From the NCBI GenBank assembly GCA_016706845.1, contig JADJIV010000020.1, forward strand, positions 3,671 to 67,670: a stretch of DNA of 64,000 nucleotides, written 5' to 3'. Below, in pieces: positions 23,149 through 37,795 of the stretch. The stretch is from a bacterium (lineage in GTDB: Bacteria > Krumholzibacteriota > Krumholzibacteriia > LZORAL124-64-63). Position numbers and translations under genes: made by a program. The notes under the pieces are model-generated. The model worked only from the letters and a program-made list of their open reading frames with translations, was not told the origin of the DNA and did no database searches. The first letter of the stretch is position 1; each line of letters starts with the position of its first letter.

Positions 23149-24236
<1,088 letters not shown>

Positions 24237-24239
24237 GCC

Positions 24240-25748
24240 GCCGTTCGGTCAGCTGACGCCGCACCCTGTCGTCGAGATCCTCCCACCCGCCGGCGGTCTG
24301 CGGCTCCCCGCGATCGTCGTCGTCGGGGCCGCCCGCGCGGTTCCACACCGCGGCCGCGTCCAGCAGTTCCTGCAGGCGCTGCGGCTGTTCCGCGCTCAGG
24401 TCGTGCAGCTCCCGGGGATCGTCGGTGAGATGGTAGAGCGCCAGCGGCGCCAGGGGGCGGCGTCGGGCGATGAGCTTCCACGGCCCGGTGCGCACGCCGA
24501 CCAGGTCCGGGCCGTAGGCGATGTCCTCCGACAGCAGGGTCCTCTGCGCTGCGGAATTCCCGGCGTCGTCGGGGGGCTGGGCCCGGCCGATCAGGGACGC
24601 CGGCGCGTTGGCGGGCAGCGGCAGCGGCGGCTGGCCCAGCCAGGCGGCGGCCGTCGGCGCCAGGTCGCAGAGCGAGACCGGACGGTCCCGGACGACGCCG
24701 GCCGGGACGCCGGGGCCCCGCGCCAGCCAGGGCACGTGCAGCAGCTCCTGGAACTGGGTGTGGCCGTGGCCGATGGCGCGCAGGTCGCGCGGGTCGTGGT
24801 CCCACCGAGGCGCGCCGCTTCGGCGTGCTCCAGGAATTCTTCGCCGTGATCCGACCAGATCATCACCAGGGTGTTCGTCGCGAGACCCCAGTCCTCGAGC
24901 CGGTCCAGGATCGTTCCCAGCGATTCGTCGACGTGACGGACCGACGCGGCGTAGAGGGCCCTCTTGGCGGCCAGGGCCAGGGCGGCCGGACCGTCCAGCG
25001 GCAGGGAGACCCGCCCGAGGTGCGGCACGCCGGCCCGCTCGTCGCCCCAGCGCGCCAGCGCCCGCAGCTGCGCGTCGCCGTAGCCGCTCGCGCCCGCGGC
25101 TTCGAGCAGCGGCGCGCAGAGCCGCCGCGGCGGCATGGTCGGTTCGTGCGCGTCGTTGAACAGGACGAAGGCGCAGAAGGGCCGGTCGGCCCGGCGCCGG
25201 ATCCAGTCCAGGGCGAGGTCGGCGAGGTCGGGCGCGGCGTGGTTGCGGTAGATCCGCTCCTGGAAGCTCTCCGCCAGGCCGAAGCCCACGAAGGGGTTGG
25301 AGAAGATGGCGCCGGTGCGGTAGCCGCGGCCGGCCAGGTGGCCGGCCAGCGTGGCCGCGCCGTCCCGCAGGCGCGCGGGGGCCTGCTGCGCCATGTTGCG
25401 CGGGCCGCCGCGCATCCCGGCGCCGTGCAGGCAGGGCATCAGGCCGGTGAACGCGCTGGCGAACGAGGGCAGCGTCCAGGGGGCCGGCGCGTTCGCGTCG
25501 GCGAAGCGCAGGCCGTCGCGGGCCACGGCGTCCAGGGCGGGGGTCAACGGTCCCGTCGCGGCGACGGCGCCGGCGTGGTCGGCGCGCAGGGTGTCCACCG
25601 CGAGCAGCAGCAGGTTGGGCGGCCCTTCGCGGCGGGGCGCGGCGGACGGCGGCGACACGGTCCGACGCAGGCAGGCCGCGAGGCGGTCGCGGCTCGCGGA
25701 CAGGCGCCGTCGGCGCGTCATGGGCAGGAAAGGGTCGTTGTGGTTCAT
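24240..25748 (-). CDS. sulfatase-like hydrolase/transferase (alkaline phosphatase superfamily), one frame change, 3' end uncertain
   Basis: LLLLAVDTLRADH metal site and WTLPSFAS nucleophile region (Thr rather than Cys/Ser-x-P-x-R). Frame change near 24803. The C-terminus decays into the G/C block. Confidence 0.7.
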
Positions 25749-25801
25749 CGCCCCGTGTTCGCTTCCTGGACAGTCGCGGTCTAGGCGACTAGTCTAGGTT
25801 C

Positions 25802-26260
25802 ATGGACCTGCGCGCGCACATCCCCGAAGGCTGCCTGCTGCCGAGACTGGCCTGCTCGAGCCAGGAAGAGGCCGTCGCCATGCTCGCCACGGCCGTGGCC
25901 CGCGCCGTCGGCCTGCCCGACGACCGGGCGCTGCGGCAGGAGATCCTCGCGCGCGAGGCCGTCGGGGACACCAACGTCGGCCTGGGCGTCGCCATTCCCC
26001 ACATCCGCACCCGGCTGGTCGGCAGGCCCCTGCTCGCGGTCGCCACGCTGGCCGGGCCCCTGCCCCGCGAGGGTCACGAGCCTCCGGTGGACGTCCTGCT
26101 GCTGATCGTGGGCCCCCAGCAGGACCCGCGCGCGATGCTGCGGCTCCTGGCCCGCCTGGTGCGGCAGGTCAAGGTCCCCGGCTTCCTCGACGACCTGCGG
26201 CGGGCCGCGACGCCCGCCGAATTGATCGCGGCCTTTCCCCGCGAGGAGCCGGCGGCCTGA
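25802..26260 (+). CDS. PTS EIIA type-2 domain protein (PtsN-like paralogue)
   Basis: 152-aa ORF with the active-site region GLGVAIPH. Confidence 0.75.
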   Translation: MDLRAHIPEGCLLPRLACSSQEEAVAMLATAVARAVGLPDDRALRQEILAREAVGDTNVGLGVAIPHIRTRLVGRPLLAVATLAGPLPREGHEPPVDVLLLIVGPQQDPRAMLRLLARLVRQVKVPGFLDDLRRAATPAELIAAFPREEPAA

Positions 26261-26380: not shown

Positions 26381-29300
26381 ATGACCAGCCAATCCAGGAT
26401 CCCCCGCCGCGGTGCATGGATCGCCATCGTGGCCGCGACGGTCGCCTGCGCCGCGACCGTCCATGCCGCCGCCGACCATCTGCTGATCAGCGAGGTCCTC
26501 GTCAAGGAGCGGCCGGGCGTCACGTCCTACGGCAGCGAGTACGTCGAGATCACCAACGCGGGCGCCGCGGCGGCCAGCCTCGCGCAGGTCTACCTGACCG
26601 ATGCGGGCAACAGCCTCAACGCGACGACCTTCTACTACAACATCGTCACGGGCGGAAGCGCCGGCGGCGGCGGCACCTCGGGCGATTTCCACGCCCGCTT
26701 CCCCGCGGGCGCGACGCTGGCTCCGGGCGCGTCGGTGGTGGTGGCGCTGCGCGGCAGCGCGGCCTTCCAGACCTCGCACGGCCGGCTGCCCGACTACGAG
26801 CTGTTCGAGGACGGCATCGCGCCCGACGCCGTGCCCGAGCTGGTCGAAGCCTTCCCCGGCAGCATCGGCTTCGGCCTGGGCAACGGCACGGCCAACACGG
26901 TGCCCACGGGCGGCTGGCTCGACGACCTCTCCGAGACCCTGGTGATGTACCGGTGGGACGGCGCCTCCGACCTGGTGGCCGACCTGGACTACCTGACCTG
27001 GGGGACGAGCACCTCGCTGCGCATCAACAAGACCGGCGTGACGGTCGACGGGCCCGACGCCGACAGCGTCGCGAGCGCCTATCTGGCCGACACCGCCGCG
27101 GGTTCGCAGCAGGCGATCACCACAATCCACGTCTACGGCGACTGCTTCCAGCGGTTCAGCACCGACGAGGGCACCGAGACCGCCACCGGCGGCAACGGCC
27201 TGACCGGGCACGACGAGACCAGCGAGAACCTGACGGCGACCTGGAGCGTGACCGCCGACCAGGACCCGACCTCGACCGGGACCGCGCCGGTCGCGACGCC
27301 CCTGATCACCGCGGCCGAGACCTCGCCCGCGACGCCCTACAACACCCTGCCGGTGACCGTCTCGGCGACGGTCCTGTCCCCGGCCGGCAACGCGGCGAAC
27401 GCGGCGGCCCTGCACTGGCGCACCAACGCCGGCTGGACCGAGACGCCCGCCGCGGCCGCGGGCAACGTCTGGAGCGCGCAGATCCCCGCCCTGCCGGCCG
27501 GCACGGTCGTGCAGTGGTACGTGACCGCCGCCGGGCCTCGCCGGCGGCCCGAGCGCGCTGCCCCACGGCGCGCCGCTCTACGTACGCGCCTATACCGTGC
27601 AGCAGGCGCCCGATCCGGGCGACAGCCCGCCGCACCTGCTGCTGACCGAGGTCTGCGTGCAGGGCAGCGATCACGAGTTCATCGAGATCTACAACCCGAC
27701 CGACGAGGCCGTGGAACTCGACAACTACTACGTCACCGACGCGGTCTACAACACCCAGGGCTACTGGCTGCTGCCGGCGGGCAACCCCTCCTCCGGCACC
27801 ATCGGCGGCGGCACCTTCACGGACTTCCAGGCCCGTTTCCCGGCCGGCGCGACCATCGAGCCGGGCGAGGCGCTGACGCTGTCGCTGGCCGGCAGCGAGA
27901 AGTTCCAGACGGTCTGGGGCGCGGCGCCCGACTTCGAGATCCGCGAGGACGGCGCCTCGGCGGACGCGGTCCCGAACATGCGCGAGGTCTTCCCGGGCAG
28001 CCTGCAGGGCGACGAGACCGGCGCCTGGGCGACGTTGACCAACACCGCCGAGATCGTCGTGCTCTACTACTGGAACGGCTCCAGCAACCTGGTCACCGAC
28101 ATCGACATGTTCATGTGGGGTTCGAGCACCAGCGCCCGCGTGGACAAGACGGGCGTCACGGTCAACGGCTCGACCTACGCCGCGGACACGCCCGTGGCCT
28201 CGCAGGACCAGTTCATGCTGGCCCACGACATCCTGGGCAGCTTCCAGCGGCTCGATCCGGGGGAGGGCACCGAGACCGAGACCGGCGGCAACGGCCCCCT
28301 GGGCCACAACGAGACCAGCGAGAACGTCAGCGGCACCTGGAACGCCGCCGACGGCACGCCCGGCGTCTACGAGGTGGTCGAACTGGCCGTCACCTCGGCG
28401 ACGCTCGCGCCCCAGCACCCGCAGCCGGGCGAAGAGGCCGTGGTGACCGCCGCGGTGACCGGCACGGCCGCGGTGACCGGAGTGTCCCTGCGCTACTCCC
28501 TGGACGGGGGCGCGTTCACGGACGTCGCCTGCACCGACAACGGCAACGGCACCTGGAGCGGCACGATCCCCGCTCAGGCCGAGGGCGTCGAGGTGGCCTG
28601 GTACGTGACGGCCGCGGGCGCGGGCGGCGCGTCGGCGGTCTGGCCGGAGGGGGGCGCCGCCGAGGCGCCGTCCTACACGGTCGAGACGCTCGTCCCCGGC
28701 TACGGCCTGGCCAAGCTGCTGATGACCAAGGTCTGCACGCTCGGCACCGCCGCGGAGTTCGTGGAGATCTGCAACCCGAACGCCTTCGACGTGCCGCTGC
28801 GCAACTTCTACGTGACCGACGCGGTGTACTACGAGAGCCAGGCCTACTGGAACCTGCCGGCGGGCACGCCGTCGCGCGCCACGCTCGGCGGCGGCGACTT
28901 CACCGACTTCCTGGCGAAGTTCCCCGACGACGCGGTGCTGGCGGCCGGCGACACGATCACCGTTTCGATCGGCGGCAGCCAGAGCTACCTCTCCGCCTGG
29001 GGCGTGATGCCCTACTACGAGCTGTTCGAGGACGACGACTACGAGGACTCGGTCGACGACCTGCAGGAGGTGTTCCCGGGCAGCATCAACGGCGTCACCG
29101 TGCCCACGCTGTCCAACCTCTCGGACACCGGCACCTACATCAACGGCGAAATCGTGGCCCTGTTCTTCTGGGACGGCGTCAGCGACCTCGTGACCGACAT
29201 CGACGTCTTCCTCTGGGGCGAAGGCAACTCGTACACGGTCGTCAAGACCGGCATCACCATCGGCACCAGCACCTACGCCGCCGAGGCCGGCTATCCCGAC

Positions 29301-29819
29301 AAGTTCATGACCGAGCACGCCAACGGCGAGGCCTACGTCCGCCTCGACGCGACCGAGGGCGCCCAGGTTCAGACCGGCGGCAACGGCTTCGAGGGCGCCG
29401 ACGAGACCAGCGAGAACCTGTCGACCACCTGGGCCGTCCAGGTCGTGACCCCGGTGGCGCCCCCGATGCCCGAGGGCTCCGGCGAGGTGAGTCTGGTCGT
29501 GCCGGCGCAGACCTTCCTGGCGTCGCGCGGCGAGACCTTCCGCATCACGTTCACGGCGTCGCCCGGGGCGGAGACGGTCCTGCGCATCATCGACCTGAAC
29601 GGTCGCCTGGTGCGCCACCTCTACGACTCGCGCTTCGACGGCGACGCTTCCATCGTGCCCGACACGCCGTCGATCAGGGTGTGGGACGGACGCAACGAGA
29701 CCTACGAGCTGGCCCGGGCCGGGATGTACGTCGTCCACCTCCAGGTGACCGACCCCAGGACAGGCAAGAGGATCGAAAAGACCGCACCGGCCGTGGTGTC
29801 CACGCGCCTGAGCAACTAG
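26381..29819 (+). CDS. secreted protein of about 1146 aa with three lamin-tail-domain (LTD) modules and a FlgD-Ig/T9SS-type C-terminal domain (one frame change near 27541)
   Basis: Signal peptide. Three paralogous modules begin LLISEVLV…EYVEITNAG, LLLTEVCVQGSDHEFIEIYNPTDEAVELDNYYVTD and LLMTKVCTLGTAAEFVEICNPNAFDVPLRNFYVTD, each with a GGNG…ETSENL motif. C-terminal Ig-like domain ETFRITFTA…LRIIDLNGRLVRHL…GMYVVHLQV. Confidence 0.75.
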
Positions 29820-29834
29820 GGGAGGCTGAGAGGC

Positions 29835-30722
29835 ATGATCCGCAGCGCAACGATCACCGTCGCCCTCGTGCTCGGGCTGGCCGCGTCCACGGCGCAGGCG
29901 GCCTTCGAGAACGTCGACATCAGCCCGCGGGCGCGGGCCATGGGCGGCGCCGCCGTGGCGGTCGCCGACGACGCCTTCGCGCCCTTCTTCAACCCGGCCG
30001 GGATGGCGGGGCAGAAGCGCCCCGTCCTGGGCAACTCCTACGTGAAGCCCTACGGCCTGAGCTTCAACGAGCAGATGTACTTCGGCGGCGTGGCGCCGCT
30101 GTCGGCCCGCCTGGGCGCGCTCGGCTTCGGCTACCGCCGCTTCGCCGTGACGTACCAGGACGTCGACCTGACGACCGAGAGCACGTTCACGCTGGCCCAC
30201 GGCCTGACGCTGTACGAGGACCTCCACTCGACGATCAGGTTCGGCACGGCGCTGAACCTCTACGATCTGGAGTACGCCGAGACCGTCGGCGGCGTCGACC
30301 CCGGCCACGCCAGCGTCGTGGGCGCGGACGTCGGCCTGCAGGTCATCCTGCACGAGCGCACCCGCCTGGGCGTGATGGTCCGCAACCTGAACAACCCCCA
30401 GATCGGCCTCGACAACGAGGAGCTCCAGCAGCAGCTGACCGGCGGCATCTCCTACGTGCCGTACGACGGGGTCGTGACCGCCTTCGAGGTGGGCAACTCC
30501 CTCGACGGCCAGACCCGCTACCGCGGCGGCGTCGAGTTCGCCGCCCTCGGGGCGCTGAGCCTGCGCGGCGGCGTGGCCACCAACCCCTCGCTGGTGACCG
30601 GCGGCTTCGGCTACGGCTACGGCGGGATCACGGTCGACTACGGCTTCTCGACGGGCGGCGGGGTGCTGGCCCCCAGCCACCAGTTCGGGATGACCTTCGC
30701 CTGGGGCGGTGAGGCGCCGTGA
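29835..30722 (+). CDS. outer-membrane beta-barrel protein, PorV/PorQ-like
   Basis: Signal peptide …STAQA/AF. N-terminal motif SPRARAMGGAAVAVADDAFAPFFNPAGMAG. Alternating beta-strand pattern. Confidence 0.6.
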   Translation: MIRSATITVALVLGLAASTAQAAFENVDISPRARAMGGAAVAVADDAFAPFFNPAGMAGQKRPVLGNSYVKPYGLSFNEQMYFGGVAPLSARLGALGFGYRRFAVTYQDVDLTTESTFTLAHGLTLYEDLHSTIRFGTALNLYDLEYAETVGGVDPGHASVVGADVGLQVILHERTRLGVMVRNLNNPQIGLDNEELQQQLTGGISYVPYDGVVTAFEVGNSLDGQTRYRGGVEFAALGALSLRGGVATNPSLVTGGFGYGYGGITVDYGFSTGGGVLAPSHQFGMTFAWGGEAP

Positions 30723-33283
30723 GGAACACGATCGCAGCGGTGTGGATGGCGGCGCTGATGCTGGCCGCCGTTCCCGCCGCGCAAGCCTCGTCGGCGTCCG
30801 CCGGCAAGCTCGACCTCAACCAGGCCACGCTGGAGCAGATCCGCGGCCTGCCGGTGAGCGAGGAGCTGGCCCGGGCGATCTACGACCACCGGACCTACGT
30901 GAGCTACTTCGAGAACGTCTACGACCTCATGGAGGTCGCGGGCATGACGCCGGCCGACCTGGCCGCGCTCAAGCCCCTGGTGATGACCCTGCCGCCAGCG
31001 CCCACGGACGCCGGCATGGCCCGCCTGGCCGCCTCCTACGAGCAGGTCAGCGGCTTCCTGAGCCAGGAAGGCGCGAGCGAGGGCCTGGTCGACGAGTACC
31101 TCGACCTGATCCGCGACCCCGTCGACATCAACGGCCTGGACCTGTTCGACCTCATGTCGTTCCAGAACGTGTCGCCGGTGGACGCCAAGGCGATCCTGCG
31201 CGCGCGGCAGCGGCTGGGCGCCTTCGCCGACGACCGCCAGCTGCGGCGCAGCGACGGCCTGAGCTACTTCGCCTTCCGCAACATCCGCGACTTCGTCGTC
31301 TACGGGGCGCCGGAAAGCGGCGGGGGCAGCAAGGTCCACGGCAACTACCAGCTGCGCTGGTACGACACCCCCTACGTGCTCGACGACAGCGACATCGCCG
31401 GCGCGGGCGGCCTGACCTCCGCCGACGAGATCACGGCCGGCACGCTGCTGACCGAGGGGAACGCCCACCTGACCCAGAAGCTGACCCTGAACCTCGGCGA
31501 CGGCTTCCGGGCCGGCGCGCTGACGCACCGCGGACTGGGCGAGGACTCCTGGCGCGAGACGATGAAGGGCTACTTCGGCGTCGACGACCGGCGCTTCGGG
31601 GACCTGCGCCTCAAGCGCCTCTACTTCGGCAACTACCGGGTCGCCTTCGGCCAGGGCCTGATCATGGACAACACGGACTTCATGATGAGCCGCAAGACCG
31701 GCTTCGGCTGGAACAAGCGGCCCATCGGCGTGCGCGGCGACCTCAGCCGCAGCAGCGAGTTCGCCCTGACCGGCCTGGCCGCCGAGGCCAGCTACGGCCG
31801 CCTGCACGGCACGATGTTCCTGTCCTGGGACCGCAAGGACGGCATCCTGAACCCGGACGGGACGGTCAACCAGTACATCGTGATGAAGCCGCGGCCGACC
31901 GACGACTGGCTCGGCGACCACCTGGCCTTCGAGGCCGGGCGCTCCTACGCCGTCGGCGCGCTCAAGGACACCCCGACGCTCCTGAAGCGCGACGCCTTCC
32001 GCGAGGACATCGTCGGCGGCAACCTGAAGTTCATGCTCGACGACGCCTCCTACGTGGGCGTGACGGCCTACGAGGCCAAGTACGACCGGGCCTTCGACGC
32101 CGACCCGTCCACCCTGGTCAGCTATTACAGCCTGGTGGACCGCGACCTGCTGGAAGCCCGCGACAGCGAACTGTGGTCGGGCTACACGAGCGTCGAGGAG
32201 GACGCGACGGCGGGCACCCGCACCGAGCACAAGTTCCGCCGCGTCTACGGCGCCGAGTTCCAGACGGTGTTCGACAACGTTTCGCTACAGGGCGAGTACG
32301 GCGTGCTGCAGGACCCGAAGGCCGGCTGGTTCCACGGGAACAGCCCCGACGCCCTGGTCCTGAACGCCTTCGCCCAGTGGGACGACCTGAACCTGCTGGC
32401 GCTGTACCGCGACTACGACCTGGGCTTCGACAACCCCTACAACCGGGCCTTCTCGAACGACAACCGCTACGAGCAGACCCTGCTGGACTCGCCGTTCCGC
32501 CTCAACGACGACCTCTACTCCTGGCTGGCGGTCAACACGCCGCAGCCGAAGCCGGAGCAGGGCGTCTTCCTGTCCACGCGCTACCGCATCAGCCGCACGC
32601 TGATCCTCAACGGCCTGGAGTACGACCAGTGGCAGCGCAAGTCCGACAACGCGGACCTGCAGCGCTACACGGTGCGCCTGGAGTACCAGCCCACTTTCAA
32701 CCTGCGCTTCCGCCTGCGCCACCGCTTCAGCAGCCGCAGCGAGACCAATCCCGACGACGTGCGCTGGTTCCGCTCCTGGGAGTCGCGGTTCGAGATGATC
32801 ACGCTGCTGAGCAACATGAACCGGCTGCGCTTCATGTACATGACCAGCAACGTGATGTTCCCCCCGCGGGCCCGCCTCAGCGGCACCCCCGACGGGGGCA
32901 CGACGCCCTACGAGGACGACGGCATCCCGGGCGTCGGCACCGCCGGCATGCCGGCCCACGCGTTCCAGGCGATGTACGAGCACCGCCTGTCGCCGGGCGT
33001 CTCGCTGAGCCTCAGCACCGAGATCTACAACGGCTTCGTCTGGAACTTCGAGGGCAACGAGTTCGTGGTCGTCGACGGCCGGGGTTTCCGCAACTGGGCC
33101 AGTATCGAGAGCCGCGTATCGGACCGGCTGTTCTTCCAGCTGAAGGCGACGCGGGACCACAACCTCCCGCGGACCTACCTCGACGTGCGCGCCTACCAGG
33201 ACGCGTACGGCGCCGACATCGAGAGCAGCTACGCGCCGCGGGACTGGACGACGTTCCGCATGCAGCTCGACTACACCTTCTGA
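30719..33283 (+). CDS. outer-membrane protein: N-terminal ComEA-type helix-hairpin-helix repeats fused to a large beta-barrel
   Basis: GTG start in a GTGA overlap. Signal peptide. HhH motifs LDLNQATLEQIRGLPVSEELARAIYDHR and DLMSFQNVSPVDAKAILRARQRLG. About 650 aa of strand-like sequence ending …RMQLDYTF. Confidence 0.65.
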   Translation: MRNTIAAVWMAALMLAAVPAAQASSASAGKLDLNQATLEQIRGLPVSEELARAIYDHRTYVSYFENVYDLMEVAGMTPADLAALKPLVMTLPPAPTDAGMARLAASYEQVSGFLSQEGASEGLVDEYLDLIRDPVDINGLDLFDLMSFQNVSPVDAKAILRARQRLGAFADDRQLRRSDGLSYFAFRNIRDFVVYGAPESGGGSKVHGNYQLRWYDTPYVLDDSDIAGAGGLTSADEITAGTLLTEGNAHLTQKLTLNLGDGFRAGALTHRGLGEDSWRETMKGYFGVDDRRFGDLRLKRLYFGNYRVAFGQGLIMDNTDFMMSRKTGFGWNKRPIGVRGDLSRSSEFALTGLAAEASYGRLHGTMFLSWDRKDGILNPDGTVNQYIVMKPRPTDDWLGDHLAFEAGRSYAVGALKDTPTLLKRDAFREDIVGGNLKFMLDDASYVGVTAYEAKYDRAFDADPSTLVSYYSLVDRDLLEARDSELWSGYTSVEEDATAGTRTEHKFRRVYGAEFQTVFDNVSLQGEYGVLQDPKAGWFHGNSPDALVLNAFAQWDDLNLLALYRDYDLGFDNPYNRAFSNDNRYEQTLLDSPFRLNDDLYSWLAVNTPQPKPEQGVFLSTRYRISRTLILNGLEYDQWQRKSDNADLQRYTVRLEYQPTFNLRFRLRHRFSSRSETNPDDVRWFRSWESRFEMITLLSNMNRLRFMYMTSNVMFPPRARLSGTPDGGTTPYEDDGIPGVGTAGMPAHAFQAMYEHRLSPGVSLSLSTEIYNGFVWNFEGNEFVVVDGRGFRNWASIESRVSDRLFFQLKATRDHNLPRTYLDVRAYQDAYGADIESSYAPRDWTTFRMQLDYTF

Positions 33284-33299
33284 CCGGGAGATCGAGACG

Positions 33300-34589
33300 A
33301 TGATGCTCACGACCAGGAATCACAGCGCGATCGCGGCGGCGGCCGTGCTGCTCGCGCTGCTGTCGCTCGCCTCGCCGCGGCCGGCCGGCGCCGGCCAGGC
33401 GCTGAACGCCGCCTACGGCGACGTCGCGAACTTCCGGCACCCGGAGATCGAGGCCATGTCCGGCACCGGCGCGGCGCTGTTCCGCGGCGGCTTCTCCGCC
33501 GTGCTGAACCCCGCCATGCTCGGGGACGCCGCCGGCTGGCGCCTGGACGCGGCCGGCTCGCTGGCCCAGGACCACGAGGACCGCTTCCAACCCCTCTGGG
33601 ACAGCTTCGGCAGCTACATCACCGACACGGCGATCGCCAGCAACCGCAGCCACGACTTCGACACGGGCTTCGCCCTGTCCGGCCGCGCCCTGCCGCGGCT
33701 CGGCGTCGGGGCCGCCCTGACCACCCGCTACGACTTCGGCTACGAGTTCCGCGAGGAGGTCCGCGACCCCAGCACCACCGCCGACCCCTACGACCAGATC
33801 CTCGAGGAGCGCTCCGTCACCGGCGGCGGCAGCCTGCGCGACCTCAGCCTGGGGACGGCCTGGGAGCCCGGCCCGGGCGTCTCGCTGGGCGCCACGGTCC
33901 ACTACGTCTTCGGGACCCGCACCCTGGACTTCGACCGGCGCGACGTGCAGGTCCCGGCCGACAGCTACCTGGTCTCCGAGTCGCACGACGCCGACGGCAT
34001 GAACGCCACCCTGGGCGTGCGCGCGTGCGCGGGCGAGCGCTTCGTGCTGGGCGCGGCCTGGGACACGCCCCTGAAGATCGAGGGCGACTGGACCACGACC
34101 ACCACGCTGGGCGCCGCCGCCCCGACGGCAGCGGTCGAGGGGGTCACCGTGCAGTACCCCGGCCGCCTGCGGGCCGGTCTCGCCTACTACCCCCGCTCCG
34201 AGCCCCGCACCGTCTTCGCCGCCGACGTCGTCTACACCGAGTGGAGCGAGCTGGAGGACAGCCGCGACGCGGCCGCCGGCGCCGCCCTGGAGAACACGAT
34301 GGACGTGCAGATCGGCGTGCAGCACACCTTCTACAACGGCATGCCGCTGCGCTTCGGCTTCCGCCACCTGGACAGCTACGCCGACCGCGAGGCCGGCACG
34401 GCCAGCTTCAGCGCGGGCGTGGGCTTCCCCTACGCGGCCGGCATGTTCTCCGTCTCGGCGGAGTTGGGCAAGCTGGGCAGCCGCCAGGAGCACTGGTATT
34501 CCTATCCAGACGGGTACGCCGTGGCGCCGACGTCGCGCGTGGAGGACAACCGGTTCCGCGTGGGCGCGGGCCTGACCTACGCCTTCTAG
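33300..34589 (+). CDS. outer-membrane beta-barrel protein (PorV/FadL-like)
   Basis: Signal peptide. Motif MSGTGAALFRGGFSAVLNPAML. C-terminal beta-signal …RVGAGLTYAF. Confidence 0.55.
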   Translation: MMLTTRNHSAIAAAAVLLALLSLASPRPAGAGQALNAAYGDVANFRHPEIEAMSGTGAALFRGGFSAVLNPAMLGDAAGWRLDAAGSLAQDHEDRFQPLWDSFGSYITDTAIASNRSHDFDTGFALSGRALPRLGVGAALTTRYDFGYEFREEVRDPSTTADPYDQILEERSVTGGGSLRDLSLGTAWEPGPGVSLGATVHYVFGTRTLDFDRRDVQVPADSYLVSESHDADGMNATLGVRACAGERFVLGAAWDTPLKIEGDWTTTTTLGAAAPTAAVEGVTVQYPGRLRAGLAYYPRSEPRTVFAADVVYTEWSELEDSRDAAAGAALENTMDVQIGVQHTFYNGMPLRFGFRHLDSYADREAGTASFSAGVGFPYAAGMFSVSAELGKLGSRQEHWYSYPDGYAVAPTSRVEDNRFRVGAGLTYAF

Positions 34590-34618
34590 CCGGGGAGGAT
34601 CCCCCGCGAGGAGTGACC

Positions 34619-36364
34619 ATGAGCATCAGCGCCCGTCGACTGCGCCCCGCAGCCGCGGCCCTGGCCCTGGCCTTCGTCCTGCTCGCCGCCGCCGGCTCTC
34701 CCGGCGGGGCCGGGACCGCCGACGCGCAGCAGGGCCCCGTCCGGCTGCACCTGCTCTGGACGAACGACGTCCACGGCCACATCGCGCCGGAGCCGGCGCG
34801 ATTCATGAACCCGTCGTTCCCGCCGCCGCTGGGCGGCGGCGCGTCGCTGGCGAACTACCTCGCCGGAGTCCGCGAAGAGGCCGCCGCCGCGGGCGAGGAC
34901 GTCCTGGTGGTCGACGTGGGCGATTTCTTCCAGGGCACGCCCGTGGGCTCCAAGACCAGGGGCGACGCCGTCATGGCGTACTTCGAGCAGCTCCGCTACG
35001 ACGTGATCGTGCCGGGCAACCACGACTTCGACATGGGCCGCGACAACACCGAGCGCCTGGCCAACGGCACCCGCATCCCCTTCGTCTGCGCCAACCTGCG
35101 CGACGCCGCGGACGGCGAGATCGTCGACTGGTGCGTGCCCACGCTCATGCTCGAGCGGGCCGGCCTGAAGATCGGCGTCATCGGCATCATCACCACCGGC
35201 ACCGAGCACATGTCCTTCCCGGCGAACATCGAGGGCCTGATCTTCGACCCCATGGTGCCCGTCATCGAGACCTGGCGCGACCGGCTGCGGGCCGACGGCG
35301 CCGACCTCATCTTCCTGCTGATCCACGAAGGCCTGCCCTTCGACCCGCTGGAGGGCTGGCGGCGCATCGTCGGCGGCGGCGAAGCCGAAACCGGCCAGTC
35401 GGAGTCCCAGGGCGGGGCGTACGGCACGGTGACCGGCGGCGCCCTGAACCTCATGGAGATCGTCAACGCGGTCGAGGGCATCGACGTGGCGGTCGGCGGG
35501 CACACGCACCGCGGCTACGAGCAGCCCTGGATCGACCCCATGACCCACACGATGTGCTTCGAGAGCTTCGGCAACGGGTCGAGCGTGGGCCACGCCATCC
35601 TGAAGGTCGACCCCGTCACGCGCACGCTGCTGGGCTACGAGAGCCCGCACGACCGCGGCGTCCTGATCACGCTCTTCGAGGACGAGCTGTGGCCCGACCC
35701 GGCGATGCGCCGCGTCCTGCAGCCCTACCTCGCGAAGACCGACGCGGAGATGGGCAAGGTCGTCGGCAGCGCGGCGGTCAACCTCACGCGCGGCGACCCC
35801 GGCGCCTCCCTGATGGGCAACCTGGTCACCGACGCGATGCGCGAGTACTTCGACGCCGACTTCTCGTTCCAGAACCTCGGCGGCCTGCGCGCCGACGTCC
35901 CGGCCGGCAACATCACGGCGCGCGACGTCTTCAGCGTGCTGCCCTTCGGCAACGAGCTCGTCGTGGTGCAGATGCCGGGCTCCCTGATCCGGACCCTGGT
36001 CGAGCGCAAGGTCGCCGGCGACTCCGGCGGCATCTGCGTCTCGGGCCTCCGCATGCGCTACAACAAGCAGCGCCCCGACGGCGACCGGGTCTGCGAGCTG
36101 GAGATCGCCGGCGCGCCGCTGGACCCCGAGCGCATGTACCGCGTGGTCACCACCACCTTCCTCATGGAAGGCAACAGCGGCCTGGACTTCCTGACCACCG
36201 TGCCGGCGCAGGACATCGAGCTGACCCAGATCACGATCGACGCCGCCTTCGAGCAGTACCTGGAGCGCCACAACCCCGTGCGGCCCCGCGTGGACGACCG
36301 CTGGGTCGAGGACCCCGCCGGCGTCCAGGCCTCCTACCTGGCCAGGCCCCCCGCGGCGGACTGA
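34619..36364 (+). CDS. secreted bifunctional metallophosphatase / 5'-nucleotidase (UshA family)
   Basis: Signal peptide with RR. Calcineurin-like motifs NDVHGH, GDFFQG, GNHDFD and GGHTH, plus a C-terminal 5'-nucleotidase substrate-binding domain. Confidence 0.9.
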   Translation: MSISARRLRPAAAALALAFVLLAAAGSPGGAGTADAQQGPVRLHLLWTNDVHGHIAPEPARFMNPSFPPPLGGGASLANYLAGVREEAAAAGEDVLVVDVGDFFQGTPVGSKTRGDAVMAYFEQLRYDVIVPGNHDFDMGRDNTERLANGTRIPFVCANLRDAADGEIVDWCVPTLMLERAGLKIGVIGIITTGTEHMSFPANIEGLIFDPMVPVIETWRDRLRADGADLIFLLIHEGLPFDPLEGWRRIVGGGEAETGQSESQGGAYGTVTGGALNLMEIVNAVEGIDVAVGGHTHRGYEQPWIDPMTHTMCFESFGNGSSVGHAILKVDPVTRTLLGYESPHDRGVLITLFEDELWPDPAMRRVLQPYLAKTDAEMGKVVGSAAVNLTRGDPGASLMGNLVTDAMREYFDADFSFQNLGGLRADVPAGNITARDVFSVLPFGNELVVVQMPGSLIRTLVERKVAGDSGGICVSGLRMRYNKQRPDGDRVCELEIAGAPLDPERMYRVVTTTFLMEGNSGLDFLTTVPAQDIELTQITIDAAFEQYLERHNPVRPRVDDRWVEDPAGVQASYLARPPAAD

Positions 36365-36502
36365 ATCCCGCCCGGCGATTCCGCCTCAAGCCCGTCCGCC
36401 GCCTACCGATGAAGGTGCGGAGGACGGGCTTCCGCATTTCCGCCCGCCGCCACGATGACCGACGGGGATCCGGCCCGCCCGGACCAACCGAGGAGACGCT
36501 GC

Positions 36503-37744
36503 GTGATCGAGCTGAAGACGGGTGTGGTCAACGAGCAGCTGCGTCGCTTTCGTCTGCGCATGAACCGCATGGTCGTGGGGCAGCCCGCCGCCACGGACCG
36601 GATCGCGGACTGCTTCAGCCGCCTGATCGCCGGGATCCACGATCCCGAGCGGCCGCTGCTGACGATGATGTTCCTGGGGCCGACCGGCGTCGGCAAGACC
36701 GAGACGGTGCGCTGCCTGGCCGAGTCGCTGTTCGGCGACCGCCGGGCCTTCACCCGGATCAACTGCCAGGAGTTCTCGGCCCACTACAACATCTCCAAGC
36801 TGCTCGGCTCGCCGCCGGGCTACGTGGGCGGCGAGATCCGGCCGCTGCTGGCGCAGGAGAATCTCGACAAGCACCACCTCAAGGCCCTGGAAAAGCGCTC
36901 GGGCATGATCTGCGAGGACGGCGGCCGGCTGGCCGACATGTACCCGCCCGAGTCGCCGCGCCGCCTGTCGATCGTGCTGTTCGACGAGATCGAGAAGGCC
37001 CACCCCAAGATGTGGAACACCCTGCTGGGGATCCTCGAGGACGGGCACCTGGTGCTGGCCAACAACGAGGAAGTGGACTTCACCGGCTCGATCATCGTGC
37101 TGACCTCGAACGTGGGCAGCCAGGCGATGAACGAGCGCCTCAGCCGCAGCGGCATCGGCTTCCGCGCCGCCGAAGACGACGCGGGCCTGGACGGCGACCT
37201 CGAGGCCGCCGTCACGCGCGAGGCGAAGAAGATCTTCCCGATGGAGTTCCTGAACCGCTTCGACGAGCAGATCACCTACCACACGCTCAAGCGCGAGCAC
37301 CTCTTCGAGATCCTCGACAACCAGATCTCCCAGGTGCACCACCGCGCCCTGGGCAGCGCCGAGCCCTTCCTGCTGGAGGTCACCCGCCGCGCCAAGGAGC
37401 GCCTGGTCGAGGAGGGCACCGACCCCGAGTACGGCGCCCGCCCCCTGAAGCGCGTGGTGGAGAAGCGGATCGTGACGCCCGTGTCGCACTACATCTGCAG
37501 CGACCAGATCCGCCGCGGCGACCTCGTCATGATCGACCACGACGGCGACGACTACGTGTTCATGAAGGAACCCGGCATCGACTGGGAGCGCGACGAGCAG
37601 GCCGGGCGGGTCACCGCCGCCGGCAAGTGGGCGCGCACGGACCTGGGCGTGCGGGACGACGGGGGCGAGAAGAAGAAGATGGTCGAGGAGGCCGGGCACG
37701 CCGCGGCGCCCGCCGAGGCCCTGACCGGCGCCGTCATCGACTAG
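36503..37744 (+). CDS. single-module Clp/Hsp100 D2-like AAA+ ATPase
   Basis: GTG 36503 after GAGGAG. Walker A GPTGVGKT, Walker B IVLFDEIEKA, sensor-2 GARPLKR. No N-domain or D1 ring. Confidence 0.75.
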   Translation: MIELKTGVVNEQLRRFRLRMNRMVVGQPAATDRIADCFSRLIAGIHDPERPLLTMMFLGPTGVGKTETVRCLAESLFGDRRAFTRINCQEFSAHYNISKLLGSPPGYVGGEIRPLLAQENLDKHHLKALEKRSGMICEDGGRLADMYPPESPRRLSIVLFDEIEKAHPKMWNTLLGILEDGHLVLANNEEVDFTGSIIVLTSNVGSQAMNERLSRSGIGFRAAEDDAGLDGDLEAAVTREAKKIFPMEFLNRFDEQITYHTLKREHLFEILDNQISQVHHRALGSAEPFLLEVTRRAKERLVEEGTDPEYGARPLKRVVEKRIVTPVSHYICSDQIRRGDLVMIDHDGDDYVFMKEPGIDWERDEQAGRVTAAGKWARTDLGVRDDGGEKKKMVEEAGHAAAPAEALTGAVID

Positions 37745-37762: not shown

Positions 37763-37795
37763 GAACGGCCGCGCCGATCGACGGCGCGGCCGTTC
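37763..37795. terminator. bidirectional hairpin terminator
   Basis: 14-bp perfect stem GAACGGCCGCGCCG/CGGCGCGGCCGTTC with a 5-nt loop, followed by GTATTTT. Lies between convergent genes. Confidence 0.7.

What the first reader, a model, noticed from the sequence alone, without database searches (positions are those of the whole stretch)
26381..36364. Candidate extracellular nucleic-acid capture/scavenging locus: triple-LTD cargo, two PorV-like barrels, HhH-fused barrel and 5'-nucleotidase
Five plus-strand genes are packed with gaps of -4 to +29 nt, and all five carry signal peptides.

They encode:
- a surface protein of about 1146 aa with three lamin-tail-domain modules and a FlgD-Ig/T9SS-type C-terminal domain;
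- a PorV/PorQ-like barrel;
- a barrel carrying two ComEA-type helix-hairpin-helix motifs at its N-terminus;
- a second PorV/FadL-like barrel;
- a UshA-type 5'-nucleotidase.

From established knowledge, ComEA HhH domains bind dsDNA non-specifically, bacterial LTDs are typically fused to or found next to extracellular nucleases and phosphoesterases, UshA enzymes convert nucleotides to importable nucleosides plus phosphate, and PorV shuttles T9SS C-terminal-domain cargo.

I infer that the combination is a dedicated outer-membrane machine that tethers extracellular DNA or RNA and feeds its breakdown products to the cell. I know of no characterised system with this gene set.
Basis: partly seen in the sequence, partly recalled or inferred. 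Interest (0 to 1): 0.75.

Follow-up and report, generated by a model that had tools for sequence, protein, structure and literature searches.

The report
Conserved outer-membrane nucleic-acid scavenging cluster
This is a real gene cluster, conserved across a whole candidate phylum, that encodes a large surface protein, three outer-membrane barrels and a secreted 5'-nucleotidase; it most likely captures and processes extracellular nucleic acid, using an outer-membrane machine that has not been described before.

Summary
Profiles confirm three LTD modules, two ComEA-family HhH units, a PorV-like barrel, a FadL/BamG-like barrel and an intact 5'-nucleotidase.

Two caveats apply. Gene 1 carries a 1-nt insertion near 27536, which is probably an assembly error. 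Its FlgD_ig tail is weak by profile.

The gene order is conserved in every evaluable locus of 80 Krumholzibacteriota species. A homologous core (tail-bearing surface protein, g2, g3, g4, g5-like) also occurs in WOR-3-type genomes. There it sits with NucT-like PLD nucleases, ExeM/NucH-type OB and DUF5689 (DdbD-like) domains, and once beside pstSCAB-phoU. Some Krumholzibacteriota add a ComEC-like MBL lipoprotein. The g1-type LTD module is fused to extracellular nucleases in other phyla.

These associations support the nucleic-acid reading, but several points weaken it:
- The HhH units are acidic with degenerate hairpins.
- This locus encodes no nuclease.
- LTD function is unproven.
- The WOR-3 g5-like proteins are catalytically dead.

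A dedicated secretion or anchoring apparatus remains a serious rival. I found no published description. I rate it a new variant of polymer-utilisation loci, with an uncharacterised barrel family.

The parts
26381..27535 (+). g1, 5' part. It encodes a Sec signal peptide, LTD module 1 (about 26471-27250) and the first Ig-like (CBM_56-like) domain. The reading frame is lost at about 27536.
   Evidence: GC3 frame analysis and translation. Pfam LTD E 1e-7. 1-nt insertion relative to L004, L005, L006 and L008.
27537..29819 (+). g1, 3' part. It encodes LTD module 2 (about 27630-28352), a second Ig-like domain (about 28374-28676), LTD module 3 (about 28710-29438) and a locus-specific T9SS-like C-terminal domain (about 29472-29816).
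   Evidence: Pfam LTD E 2e-10 and 8e-4; FlgD_ig only E 0.11. The repaired protein aligns without gaps to the 1145-aa orthologue P0312. AlphaFold2 model of module 3 plus tail has pLDDT 86.7, with top Foldseek hits PorU and PorZ. The tail is conserved just upstream of g2 in 79 loci plus the WOR-3-type loci.
29835..30722 (+). g2: a 295-aa barrel of the PorV/PorQ superfamily (FadL-like) with a signal peptide.
   Evidence: NCBIfam PorV_fam E 3e-12, 46.7 bits, below the cut-off of 90. The family profile hits only PorV 6H3I_F in the PDB, E 1.4e-7. Homologous to g4, hhalign probability 98.6%. Present in 74/74 loci.
30719..33283 (+). g3: an 854-aa outer-membrane protein. It has a signal peptide, two ComEA-family HhH units (about 30800-31003 and 31115-31318) and a barrel of about 24 strands (about 31331-33280) ending in YTF.
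   Evidence: Pfam HHH_3, two stretches, E 1.3e-17, and no family for the barrel. PDB sequence hits cover only the HhH part (EEPD1, ComEA). AlphaFold2 pLDDT 65, pTM 0.64, about 24 strands. Foldseek gives only generic large barrels at TM about 0.3. The family is 41-98% identical across 80 species and extends to WOR-3, TA06 and Cloacimonadota.
33300..34589 (+). g4: a 429-aa FadL/TodX/BamG-like barrel with a signal peptide and a terminal YAF.
   Evidence: NCBIfam BamG E 2.6e-17, 63 bits, below the cut-off of 250. The family profile against the PDB gives BtBAM BamG 9HIV_F 1.4e-18, PgBAM 9HJM_F 2e-16, TodX 1e-14 and PorV 0.02. Present in 67/67 loci.
34619..36364 (+). g5: a secreted 5'-nucleotidase (metallophosphoesterase plus 5_nucleotid_C) with a type I signal peptide and no lipobox or C-terminal sorting domain.
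   Evidence: Pfam Metallophos E 1.7e-9 and 5_nucleotid_C E 8.6e-37. Best PDB hits are 3IVD and 2Z1A. Motifs NDVHGH, GD, GNHD, IHEG and GGHTH are intact. Present in 54/54 loci.
36455..37744 (+). g6: a cytoplasmic AAA+ protein resembling only the D2 half of ClpB. It is a frequent downstream neighbour, and membership of the unit is uncertain.
   Evidence: Pfam AAA_2 plus ClpB_D2-small. Present in 46/51 Krumholzibacteriota loci but absent from the WOR-3-type loci. The only plus-strand terminator-like hairpin lies after it, at 37780-37794.
25802..26260 (+). PtsN-like PTS EIIA-2 gene immediately upstream. It is a frequent neighbour and is probably not part of the machine.
   Evidence: Pfam PTS_EIIA_2 E 9e-20 and NCBIfam nitro_reg_IIA E 1.8e-13. 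It is upstream in many loci but not all.

Best explanation
The locus encodes a conserved outer-membrane module of Krumholzibacteriota. A homologous core occurs in WOR-3/TA06-type genomes, and g3-family proteins also occur in MAGs labelled Cloacimonadota. It works like a polymer-utilisation locus for extracellular nucleic acid or related phosphodiester polymers.

Proposed mechanism:
1. g1 is a large modular surface protein. In this lineage it carries three extended LTD modules.
2. g1 is held at the cell surface through a locus-specific T9SS-like C-terminal domain. That domain docks on the PorV-like barrel g2 and/or the BamG/FadL-like barrel g4.
3. Both small barrels associate with the roughly 24-strand barrel g3, in the way PorV associates with SprA and BamG with BamA.
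4. g3 is the conduit across the outer membrane. Its two N-terminal ComEA-family HhH units lie in the periplasm.
5. Hydrolases with signal peptides then break down what enters. Here that is the 5'-nucleotidase g5. Sister lineages add a ComEC-like MBL lipoprotein, and WOR-3-type genomes add NucT-like PLD nucleases. The products are nucleosides plus phosphate.

Shown: the domain identities, the conservation of the unit, and the lineage-variable nuclease and phosphoesterase partners.

Inferred: physical assembly of the barrels, anchoring of g1 through its tail, the direction of transport, and the substrate.
For: - Gene order g1-g2-g3-g4-g5 is kept in every evaluable locus of 80 species.
- The same core recurs in WOR-3-type loci L084-L086: a tail-bearing protein, then a g2 homologue (E 5e-13 to 4e-27), a g3 homologue, a g4 homologue (E 7e-5 to 2e-16) and a g5-like protein (E 2e-20 to 2e-33).
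- In those loci the first gene carries the ExeM/NucH OB region (E 1e-25) and DUF5689 (43 bits, above threshold). One or two secreted NucT/Nuc-like PLD genes are inserted, and L085 abuts pstSCAB-phoU.
- DUF5689 is DdbD, the predicted dsDNA-binding partner of the outer-membrane transporter in the experimentally validated Bacteroides DNA-utilisation locus. It is also required for Riemerella transformation.
- Thirteen to fourteen Krumholzibacteriota loci insert a lipoprotein whose best NCBIfam match is the ComEC/Rec2 MBL domain.
- The g1-type LTD module (43-49% identity) is fused in other phyla to Exo_endo_phos, Endonuclease_1, YhcR-like OB and DUF5689.
- The g1 tail is conserved specifically at this position and does not match other FlgD_ig proteins in the same loci.
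- PorV and BamG are precedents for FadL-like barrels that tether surface proteins to large barrels.
- All the hydrolases have type I or lipoprotein signals and no surface-sorting tail, so they most likely act in the periplasm. That implies the polymer is imported.
Against: - HhH1 is acidic in all 19 homologues (pI 4.1-4.8) and HhH2 is about neutral. The GIG hairpins of ComEA are lost or halved.
- The window's own locus has no nuclease.
- LTD function is unknown, and the LTD is dispensable in ExeM in vivo.
- In some lineages the first gene shows only Big_5, PKD or fn3 domains.
- The WOR-3 g5-like proteins have lost every metallophosphoesterase motif and the substrate-binding domain. The conserved role of that component therefore cannot be catalysis.
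- The locus is universal and strongly conserved across the phylum. That is more typical of housekeeping machinery than of accessory nutrient loci.
- The locus encodes no inner-membrane transporter and no energy source.
- The g3 model has only moderate confidence, and its most conserved loops are poorly modelled.
Confidence: 0.5

Rival explanations
1. The cluster is a dedicated secretion and anchoring apparatus. g3 is an outer-membrane translocon for the tail-bearing protein g1, in the manner of a single-cargo T9SS or a two-partner system. g2 and g4 act as shuttle and anchor barrels. The HhH units are structural, as in GspK. The enzymes are co-regulated passengers or work together with the exported protein.
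For: - The cargo tail is the only part of gene 1 conserved across all lineages, and it is specific to this locus.
- g2 is PorV-like.
- The g1 tail model best matches the T9SS proteins PorU and PorZ.
- The HhH units are acidic and weakly resemble the T2SSK HhH-like domain in 17 of 19 homologues.
- The payload domains vary widely.
Against: - It does not explain why a g5-like phosphoesterase-fold protein is always present.
- It does not explain why NucT-like, ComEC-like MBL, ExeM-OB and DUF5689 modules recur.
- The locus encodes no inner-membrane or energising components.
- g3 has no similarity to SprA or Omp85.
Confidence: 0.22
2. The machine takes up DNA for natural transformation rather than for nutrition. 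It would be the functional equivalent of PilQ-ComEA, or of the Riemerella outer-membrane uptake proteins.
For: - Homology links to competence proteins: ComEA-family HhH units, a ComEC-like MBL domain and NucT-like nucleases.
- The Bacteroides ddb locus and the Riemerella transformation genes are evolutionarily related, showing that the two roles can interconvert.
Against: - A 5'-nucleotidase and periplasmic nucleases would destroy the incoming DNA.
- No comEC, dprA or comF gene lies in any of the loci examined.
- The adjacency to a pst operon in L085 points to phosphate acquisition.
Confidence: 0.1
3. The cluster is housekeeping outer-membrane biogenesis machinery. g4 is this phylum's BamG, and g2 and g3 are envelope-assembly partners. 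The nucleotidase is merely a neighbour.
For: - The best PDB matches of the g4 family are BamG of the Bacteroides and Porphyromonas BAM complexes.
- BamG is reported to be conserved in most FCB phyla.
- The locus is universal and highly conserved.
- In WOR-3-type genomes it follows an LpxL-like acyltransferase gene, a 239-aa ABC ATPase gene (my reading: LptB-like) and rpoN.
Against: - g4 scores 63 bits against a BamG cut-off of 250, and matches TodX almost as well.
- No bamA, bamD or bamH gene is in the locus.
- The nuclease and OB-domain associations would be unexplained.
Confidence: 0.08

Closest known systems
Bacteroidales DNA-utilisation locus ddbABCDEF, and the related Riemerella anatipestifer outer-membrane transformation genes (bioRxiv 10.1101/2025.03.18.642099; PMC8459023)
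   Same: The logic is the same: a surface DNA-binding protein, an outer-membrane barrel, and secreted or periplasmic nucleases. Riemerella additionally needs a periplasmic HhH protein. The WOR-3-type version of this cluster carries DUF5689, the DdbD domain.
   Different: The Ddb and Riemerella barrel is a TonB-dependent transporter with a lipoprotein partner. Here the barrel has no match to TonB-dependent transporter families (no Pfam family at all), is fused to the HhH units, comes with two FadL-like barrels, and has its surface protein attached through a T9SS-like tail. The window's own locus has no DUF5689 and no nuclease.
Type IX secretion outer-membrane complexes (SprA-PorV translocon; PorU-PorV-PorQ-PorZ attachment complex; PorP/SprF with type B tails)
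   Same: A Sec-exported protein with an Ig-like C-terminal sorting domain is encoded next to a FadL-like PorV-superfamily barrel and a large barrel. Cargo and its cognate barrel being adjacent is known for SprB and SprF (my own knowledge).
   Different: g2 scores far below the PorV and PorQ equivalog cut-offs. g3 is unrelated to SprA. There is no PorU sortase and no PorKLMN in the locus. The tail is a subtype specific to this locus.
Bacteroidota BAM complex, BamA-BamG-BamH (PMC12611786; PMC12578637)
   Same: A FadL-like 14-strand barrel binds the back of a large barrel and serves as a platform for a surface protein. The closest solved relatives of g4 are the BamG subunits.
   Different: g4 does not reach the BamG family cut-off. 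The partner barrel is not an Omp85 protein. No BamD or BamH is present.
Shewanella eDNA scavenging enzymes: ExeM/NucH-type nucleases (LTD, OB, EEP) plus UshA-type nucleotidases (PMC6085458; PMC8289736)
   Same: LTD, OB-fold and 5'-nucleotidase components are combined to turn extracellular DNA into nucleosides and phosphate.
   Different: In Shewanella these are dispersed single enzymes. Here the LTD protein lacks any catalytic domain and is genetically locked to three outer-membrane barrels.
ComEA (periplasmic DNA receptor and ratchet of competent bacteria)
   Same: The g3 N-terminus contains two HHH_3 units homologous to ComEA and EEPD1.
   Different: The units are fused to an outer-membrane barrel, are acidic, and have degenerate GIG hairpins. 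The score is 33 bits against a comE family cut-off of 152.

Membership tests
Lamin-tail-domain (LTD, PF00932) proteins | Match to the LTD profile at or above Pfam's gathering score | tested here: met
   Module 2 scores 41.4 bits against a cut-off of 34.3. Modules 1 and 3 score 32.4 and 20.2 bits, but are 38-48% identical to module 2.
T9SS cargo (type A C-terminal domain) | C-terminal domain matching Por_Secre_tail/TIGR04183 or FlgD_ig, together with an N-terminal Sec signal | tested here: inconclusive
   g1 reaches only E 0.11 for FlgD_ig and has no TIGR04183 hit. Orthologues P0372 and P0375 and the WOR-3 counterparts do carry FlgD_ig and Por_Secre_tail. The top Foldseek hits are PorU and PorZ.
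T9SS cargo (type A C-terminal domain) | The genome encodes the T9SS core (SprA/Sov, PorK-N, PorU, PorV) | not testable with these tools
   Only a 64-kb window and 10-kb flanks of related loci were available. No core gene was seen in them.
PorV / PorQ (T9SS) | Score above the NCBIfam equivalog or subfamily cut-off | tested here: not met
   g2 scores: PorV_fam 46.7 against 90, T9SS_OM_PorV 13.9 against 250, PorQ 18.5 against 220. Superfamily relationship only: the g2 profile hits PorV 6H3I_F at E 1.4e-7.
BamG (Bacteroidota BAM subunit) | Score above the NCBIfam BamG cut-off | tested here: not met
   g4 scores 63 bits against a cut-off of 250. BamG is the best PDB relative, but TodX is close behind.
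BamG (Bacteroidota BAM subunit) | Association with BamA and BamH | not testable with these tools
   Association cannot be tested with sequence tools. No bamA or bamH gene lies in the locus.
ComEA | HHH_3 DNA-binding domain with intact G-h-G hairpins and a basic surface | tested here: not met
   The HHH_3 domain is present (64 bits against a cut-off of 27). However, the comE family score is 33 against 152. Hairpins read LP-VSEE and GMT where ComEA has LPGIGPV and GIG. Net charge of HhH1 is -4 to -8.
5'-nucleotidase / UshA family | Metallophos plus 5_nucleotid_C domains with intact metal-binding and catalytic motifs | tested here: met
   Both Pfam domains score above threshold. Motifs D-x-H, GD, GNH, H and GHxH are present. 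Best solved relatives are 3IVD and 2Z1A. It is not the UshA equivalog (142 bits against 600).
Ddb-type DNA-utilisation locus | DdbC-type TonB-dependent transporter plus a DUF5689 partner plus secreted nucleases | tested here: not met
   The window locus has no match to TonB-dependent transporter families, no DUF5689 and no nuclease. DUF5689 and nucleases appear only in the WOR-3-type versions.

The most novel reading that the evidence does not exclude
g3, together with the PorV-like and BamG-like barrels, is a previously unrecognised TonB-independent outer-membrane nucleic-acid translocon. In this reading a barrel of about 24 strands is fused to ComEA-family domains and is served by a capture protein anchored through a dedicated C-terminal domain. 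It would be the functional counterpart of PilQ-ComEA or DdbCD in Krumholzibacteriota, WOR-3/TA06 and allied candidate phyla.
Probability: 0.3. Interest if true: 0.85.

Novelty: new variant of a known kind. Interest (0 to 1): 0.68.

Why it matters
How large polyanions such as DNA cross the outer membrane is known for only two routes: the type IV pilus with its secretin, and, recently, a TonB-dependent transporter in Bacteroidota. This cluster is a testable candidate for a third architecture, found in uncultured phyla that are common in sediments, soils and wastewater, where extracellular DNA is a major pool of phosphorus and nitrogen.

It also extends an emerging theme in this part of the bacterial tree: FadL-like barrels (PorV, PorQ, BamG) acting as adaptors that tether surface proteins to large barrels.

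Finally, it defines a sizeable family of about 800-aa outer-membrane proteins that has no Pfam model for its barrel and no literature.

Tried and rejected
- **Sigma-54 promoter upstream of g1.** I tested this because rpoN or a ptsN-like gene precedes the locus. The window has GGCACG-N4-CCGC at -118, but the motif is absent upstream of g1 in the other 58 loci examined, apart from an unrelated match at -269 in L045, and is absent even in relatives of 95-98% identity. Rejected.
- **Rfam scan of the whole window.** No family matched.
- **Foldseek of the g3 model.** It returned only generic large barrels (TonB-dependent transporters, FimD and PapC ushers, MtrB, SlpA) at TM about 0.3. Pfam on 19 homologues found nothing for the barrel. 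The barrel could not be assigned to a family.
- **Metagenome scan with an alignment of distant g3 homologues.** I reached the WOR-3 loci through a homologue search and contig look-ups instead.
- **Divergent upstream alkaline-phosphatase-superfamily gene as a possible phosphodiesterase.** NCBIfam places it nearest arylsulfatase and choline-sulfatase, so I did not count it as evidence.
- **Whether g4 is the phylum's true BamG orthologue.** This could not be settled without whole genomes.
- **Terminator and promoter scans.** They found no more sites than expected by chance. Only the position of one hairpin just after g6 is suggestive.

Full report
**Gene model**

The window is about 71% GC, so long spurious ORFs are common. 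I therefore called genes from third-codon-position GC. This gives five plus-strand genes:
- g1 26381..29819
- g2 29835..30722
- g3 30719..33283
- g4 33300..34589
- g5 34619..36364

All five products start with a basic n-region, a hydrophobic core and an AxA-type site. g3 and g4 end in the typical outer-membrane-protein signal (…DYTF, …TYAF).

The coding frame changes near 27536. Compared with four relatives of 90-96% identity, the window carries one extra base there. Removing it gives a 1145-aa protein that aligns without gaps to an intact 1145-aa orthologue (P0312, 89.9% identity).

The same window also contains a second frame break, in the neighbouring sulfatase-family gene (two HSPs meeting near 24810). 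It further contains 1.07 kb of poly-C/poly-G junk at 23150-24220. An assembly indel is therefore the likeliest cause of the g1 frameshift.

**Domain checks**
- **g1.** It has three paralogous modules of about 240 aa (38-48% identical to one another). Each matches Pfam LTD (E 1e-7, 2e-10, 8e-4). Ig-like domains that weakly resemble CBM_56 separate them.
- **g1 tail.** The C-terminal 115 aa reach only E 0.11 for FlgD_ig. Orthologues carry Por_Secre_tail plus FlgD_ig. An AlphaFold2 model of module 3 plus tail (pLDDT 86.7) finds the T9SS proteins PorU and PorZ as its best PDB matches.
- **g2.** It matches NCBIfam PorV_fam below cut-off (46.7 against 90). A profile of 17 orthologues hits only PorV (6H3I_F) in the PDB, at E 1.4e-7.
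- **g4.** It matches NCBIfam BamG below cut-off (63 against 250). Its family profile is closest to BamG of the Bacteroides and Porphyromonas BAM complexes (9HIV_F at 1.4e-18, 9HJM_F at 2e-16). TodX follows at 1e-14 and PorV at only 0.02.
- **g2 and g4** are homologous to each other (hhalign probability 98.6%).
- **g3.** It has two HHH_3 units (E 1.3e-17) whose only solved relatives are EEPD1 and ComEA. The remaining roughly 650 aa match no Pfam family in any of 19 homologues. They are modelled as a barrel of about 24 strands (pLDDT 65, pTM 0.64) with only generic barrel matches.
- **g5.** It is a standard two-domain 5'-nucleotidase with all metal and catalytic motifs.

**Conservation**

A scan of one genome per GTDB species returned 80 loci. 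Many record titles name Krumholzibacteria, Krumholzibacteriia or Krumholzibacteriota; the rest carry other labels or none. In every locus long enough to judge, the order is kept: g2 in 74/74, a g1-type gene in 68/68, g4 in 67/67 and g5 in 54/54. A ClpB-D2-like AAA+ gene follows in 46/51.

g3 is 41-98% identical across the set. g1 is the most variable gene: its payload may be LTD, Big_5, PKD, fn3 or OB domains. Its last roughly 110 residues are nevertheless conserved in 79 loci. They do not match other FlgD_ig proteins in the same loci. The tail is therefore a subtype specific to this locus. That points to a dedicated relationship between the tail and the barrels.

**Beyond the phylum**

A profile search of 1.84 billion representative proteins found 132 relatives at E<1e-30. 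These include full-length proteins of about 790-890 aa named from WOR-3, TA06, Stahlbacteria and Cloacimonadota MAGs.

Three such loci (L084-L086) show the same core. In order they encode a tail-bearing protein, a g2 homologue, a g3 homologue, a g4 homologue and a roughly 300-aa homologue of the g5 phosphoesterase half. The variable parts are telling:
- The first gene carries the ExeM/NucH OB region (E 1e-25), DUF5689 (43 bits) and FlgD_ig/Por_Secre_tail.
- One or two secreted single-HKD PLD proteins are inserted. They are closest to NucT and Nuc.
- L085 abuts pstSCAB-phoU.

DUF5689 is DdbD. That is the predicted dsDNA-binding partner of the outer-membrane transporter in the validated Bacteroides DNA-utilisation locus, and it is required for Riemerella transformation.

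Within Krumholzibacteriota, 13-14 loci insert a lipoprotein between g4 and g5. Its best NCBIfam match is the ComEC/Rec2 MBL domain.

The g1-type LTD module is fused in Acidobacteriota, KSB1, Bacteroidetes and others to Exo_endo_phos, Endonuclease_1, YhcR-like OB folds and DUF5689.

**Interpretation**

These independent associations make nucleic-acid or phosphodiester processing the best-supported theme. The layout resembles a polymer-utilisation locus: a surface binder, an outer-membrane conduit and periplasmic hydrolases. PorV-SprA and BamG-BamA-BamH are precedents for FadL-like barrels that tether surface proteins to big barrels. I therefore propose that g2 and g4 dock the g1 tail onto g3.

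**Cautions**
- The HhH units are not ComEA-like in the features that bind DNA. HhH1 is acidic in all 19 homologues (net -4 to -8), and HhH2 is roughly neutral. The hairpins read LP-VSEE and GMT where ComEA has LPGIGPV and GIG.
- LTD function is unknown, and the LTD is dispensable for ExeM activity in vivo.
- The window's locus has no nuclease.
- The WOR-3 g5-like proteins have lost every catalytic motif, so that component's conserved role is not catalysis.
- The locus is universal in the phylum, which is unusual for accessory nutrient loci.
- Hence a dedicated export and anchoring apparatus for the tail-bearing protein remains a serious rival. Transformation-type uptake and envelope biogenesis are lesser ones.

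**Novelty**

Full-text searches found no description of this gene set or of an HhH-fused barrel. I rate it a new variant of known polymer/DNA-utilisation loci, built on an uncharacterised barrel family. There is perhaps a 30% chance that it represents a genuinely new outer-membrane nucleic-acid translocon.

Noticed in passing
window 23150-24220: About 1.07 kb of near-pure poly-C followed by poly-G runs, roughly 95% GC in all three codon phases. It lies between the ApbC/Mrp-like gene and the sulfatase-family gene. It looks like a sequencing or assembly artefact, not biology.
   Followed up: partly
window 24262-25757 (minus strand): The alkaline-phosphatase-superfamily (sulfatase-like) gene matches its orthologue as two HSPs that meet near 24810, which I read as a second frameshift in this window. 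Its 3' end abuts the homopolymer junk. The gene is a divergent upstream neighbour of the cluster in 43 fetched loci besides the window.
   Followed up: partly
window 36455-37744: A 429-aa AAA+ protein made only of a ClpB D2-type module (AAA_2 plus ClpB_D2-small), with no N-domain or D1. It follows g5 in 46/51 Krumholzibacteriota loci, and the only plus-strand terminator-like hairpin lies after it (37780-37794). It has no obvious link to an envelope machine.
   Followed up: partly
L084 14758-15666; L085 14577-15503; L086 14854-15765: The WOR-3-type homologues of the g5 phosphoesterase domain have lost all five metallophosphoesterase motifs and lack the 5_nucleotid_C domain. They keep a signal peptide and the family-specific FxNPxFPPxLGG segment, so they look like conserved pseudoenzymes.
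   Followed up: partly
L084 and L086, 2849-7141; window 25802-26260: In WOR-3-type genomes the cluster directly follows an LpxL-like acyltransferase gene, a 239-aa ABC ATPase gene that I read as LptB-like, and rpoN. In Krumholzibacteriota a PtsN-like EIIA gene often precedes it. No conserved sigma-54 promoter was found upstream of g1.
   Followed up: yes
L004-L083 record titles: Loci that are clearly from one lineage (g3 41-98% identical, same synteny) are deposited under many names: Fibrobacteraceae, Gemmatimonas, Latescibacterota, Eisenbacteria and even Saccharimonadaceae. Taxonomic labels of these MAGs are unreliable.
   Followed up: no
L009, L011, L012: Three separate contigs of one MAG (CAYMCR01) each carry a copy of the cluster, at 69-70% identity to the window's g3. 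This means either paralogous copies or a mixed-strain bin.
   Followed up: no
window g3 residues 311-345 and 565-613 (about 31649-31753 and 32411-32557): The most strongly conserved stretches of g3 (GQGLxMDNTD…RKTGFGWNKRPxGVRGDLSRS, and YDxGFDNPYNRAFSND…NTPQPKPE) fall in loops that AlphaFold2 models with very low confidence. They are candidates for partner or substrate contacts.
   Followed up: no
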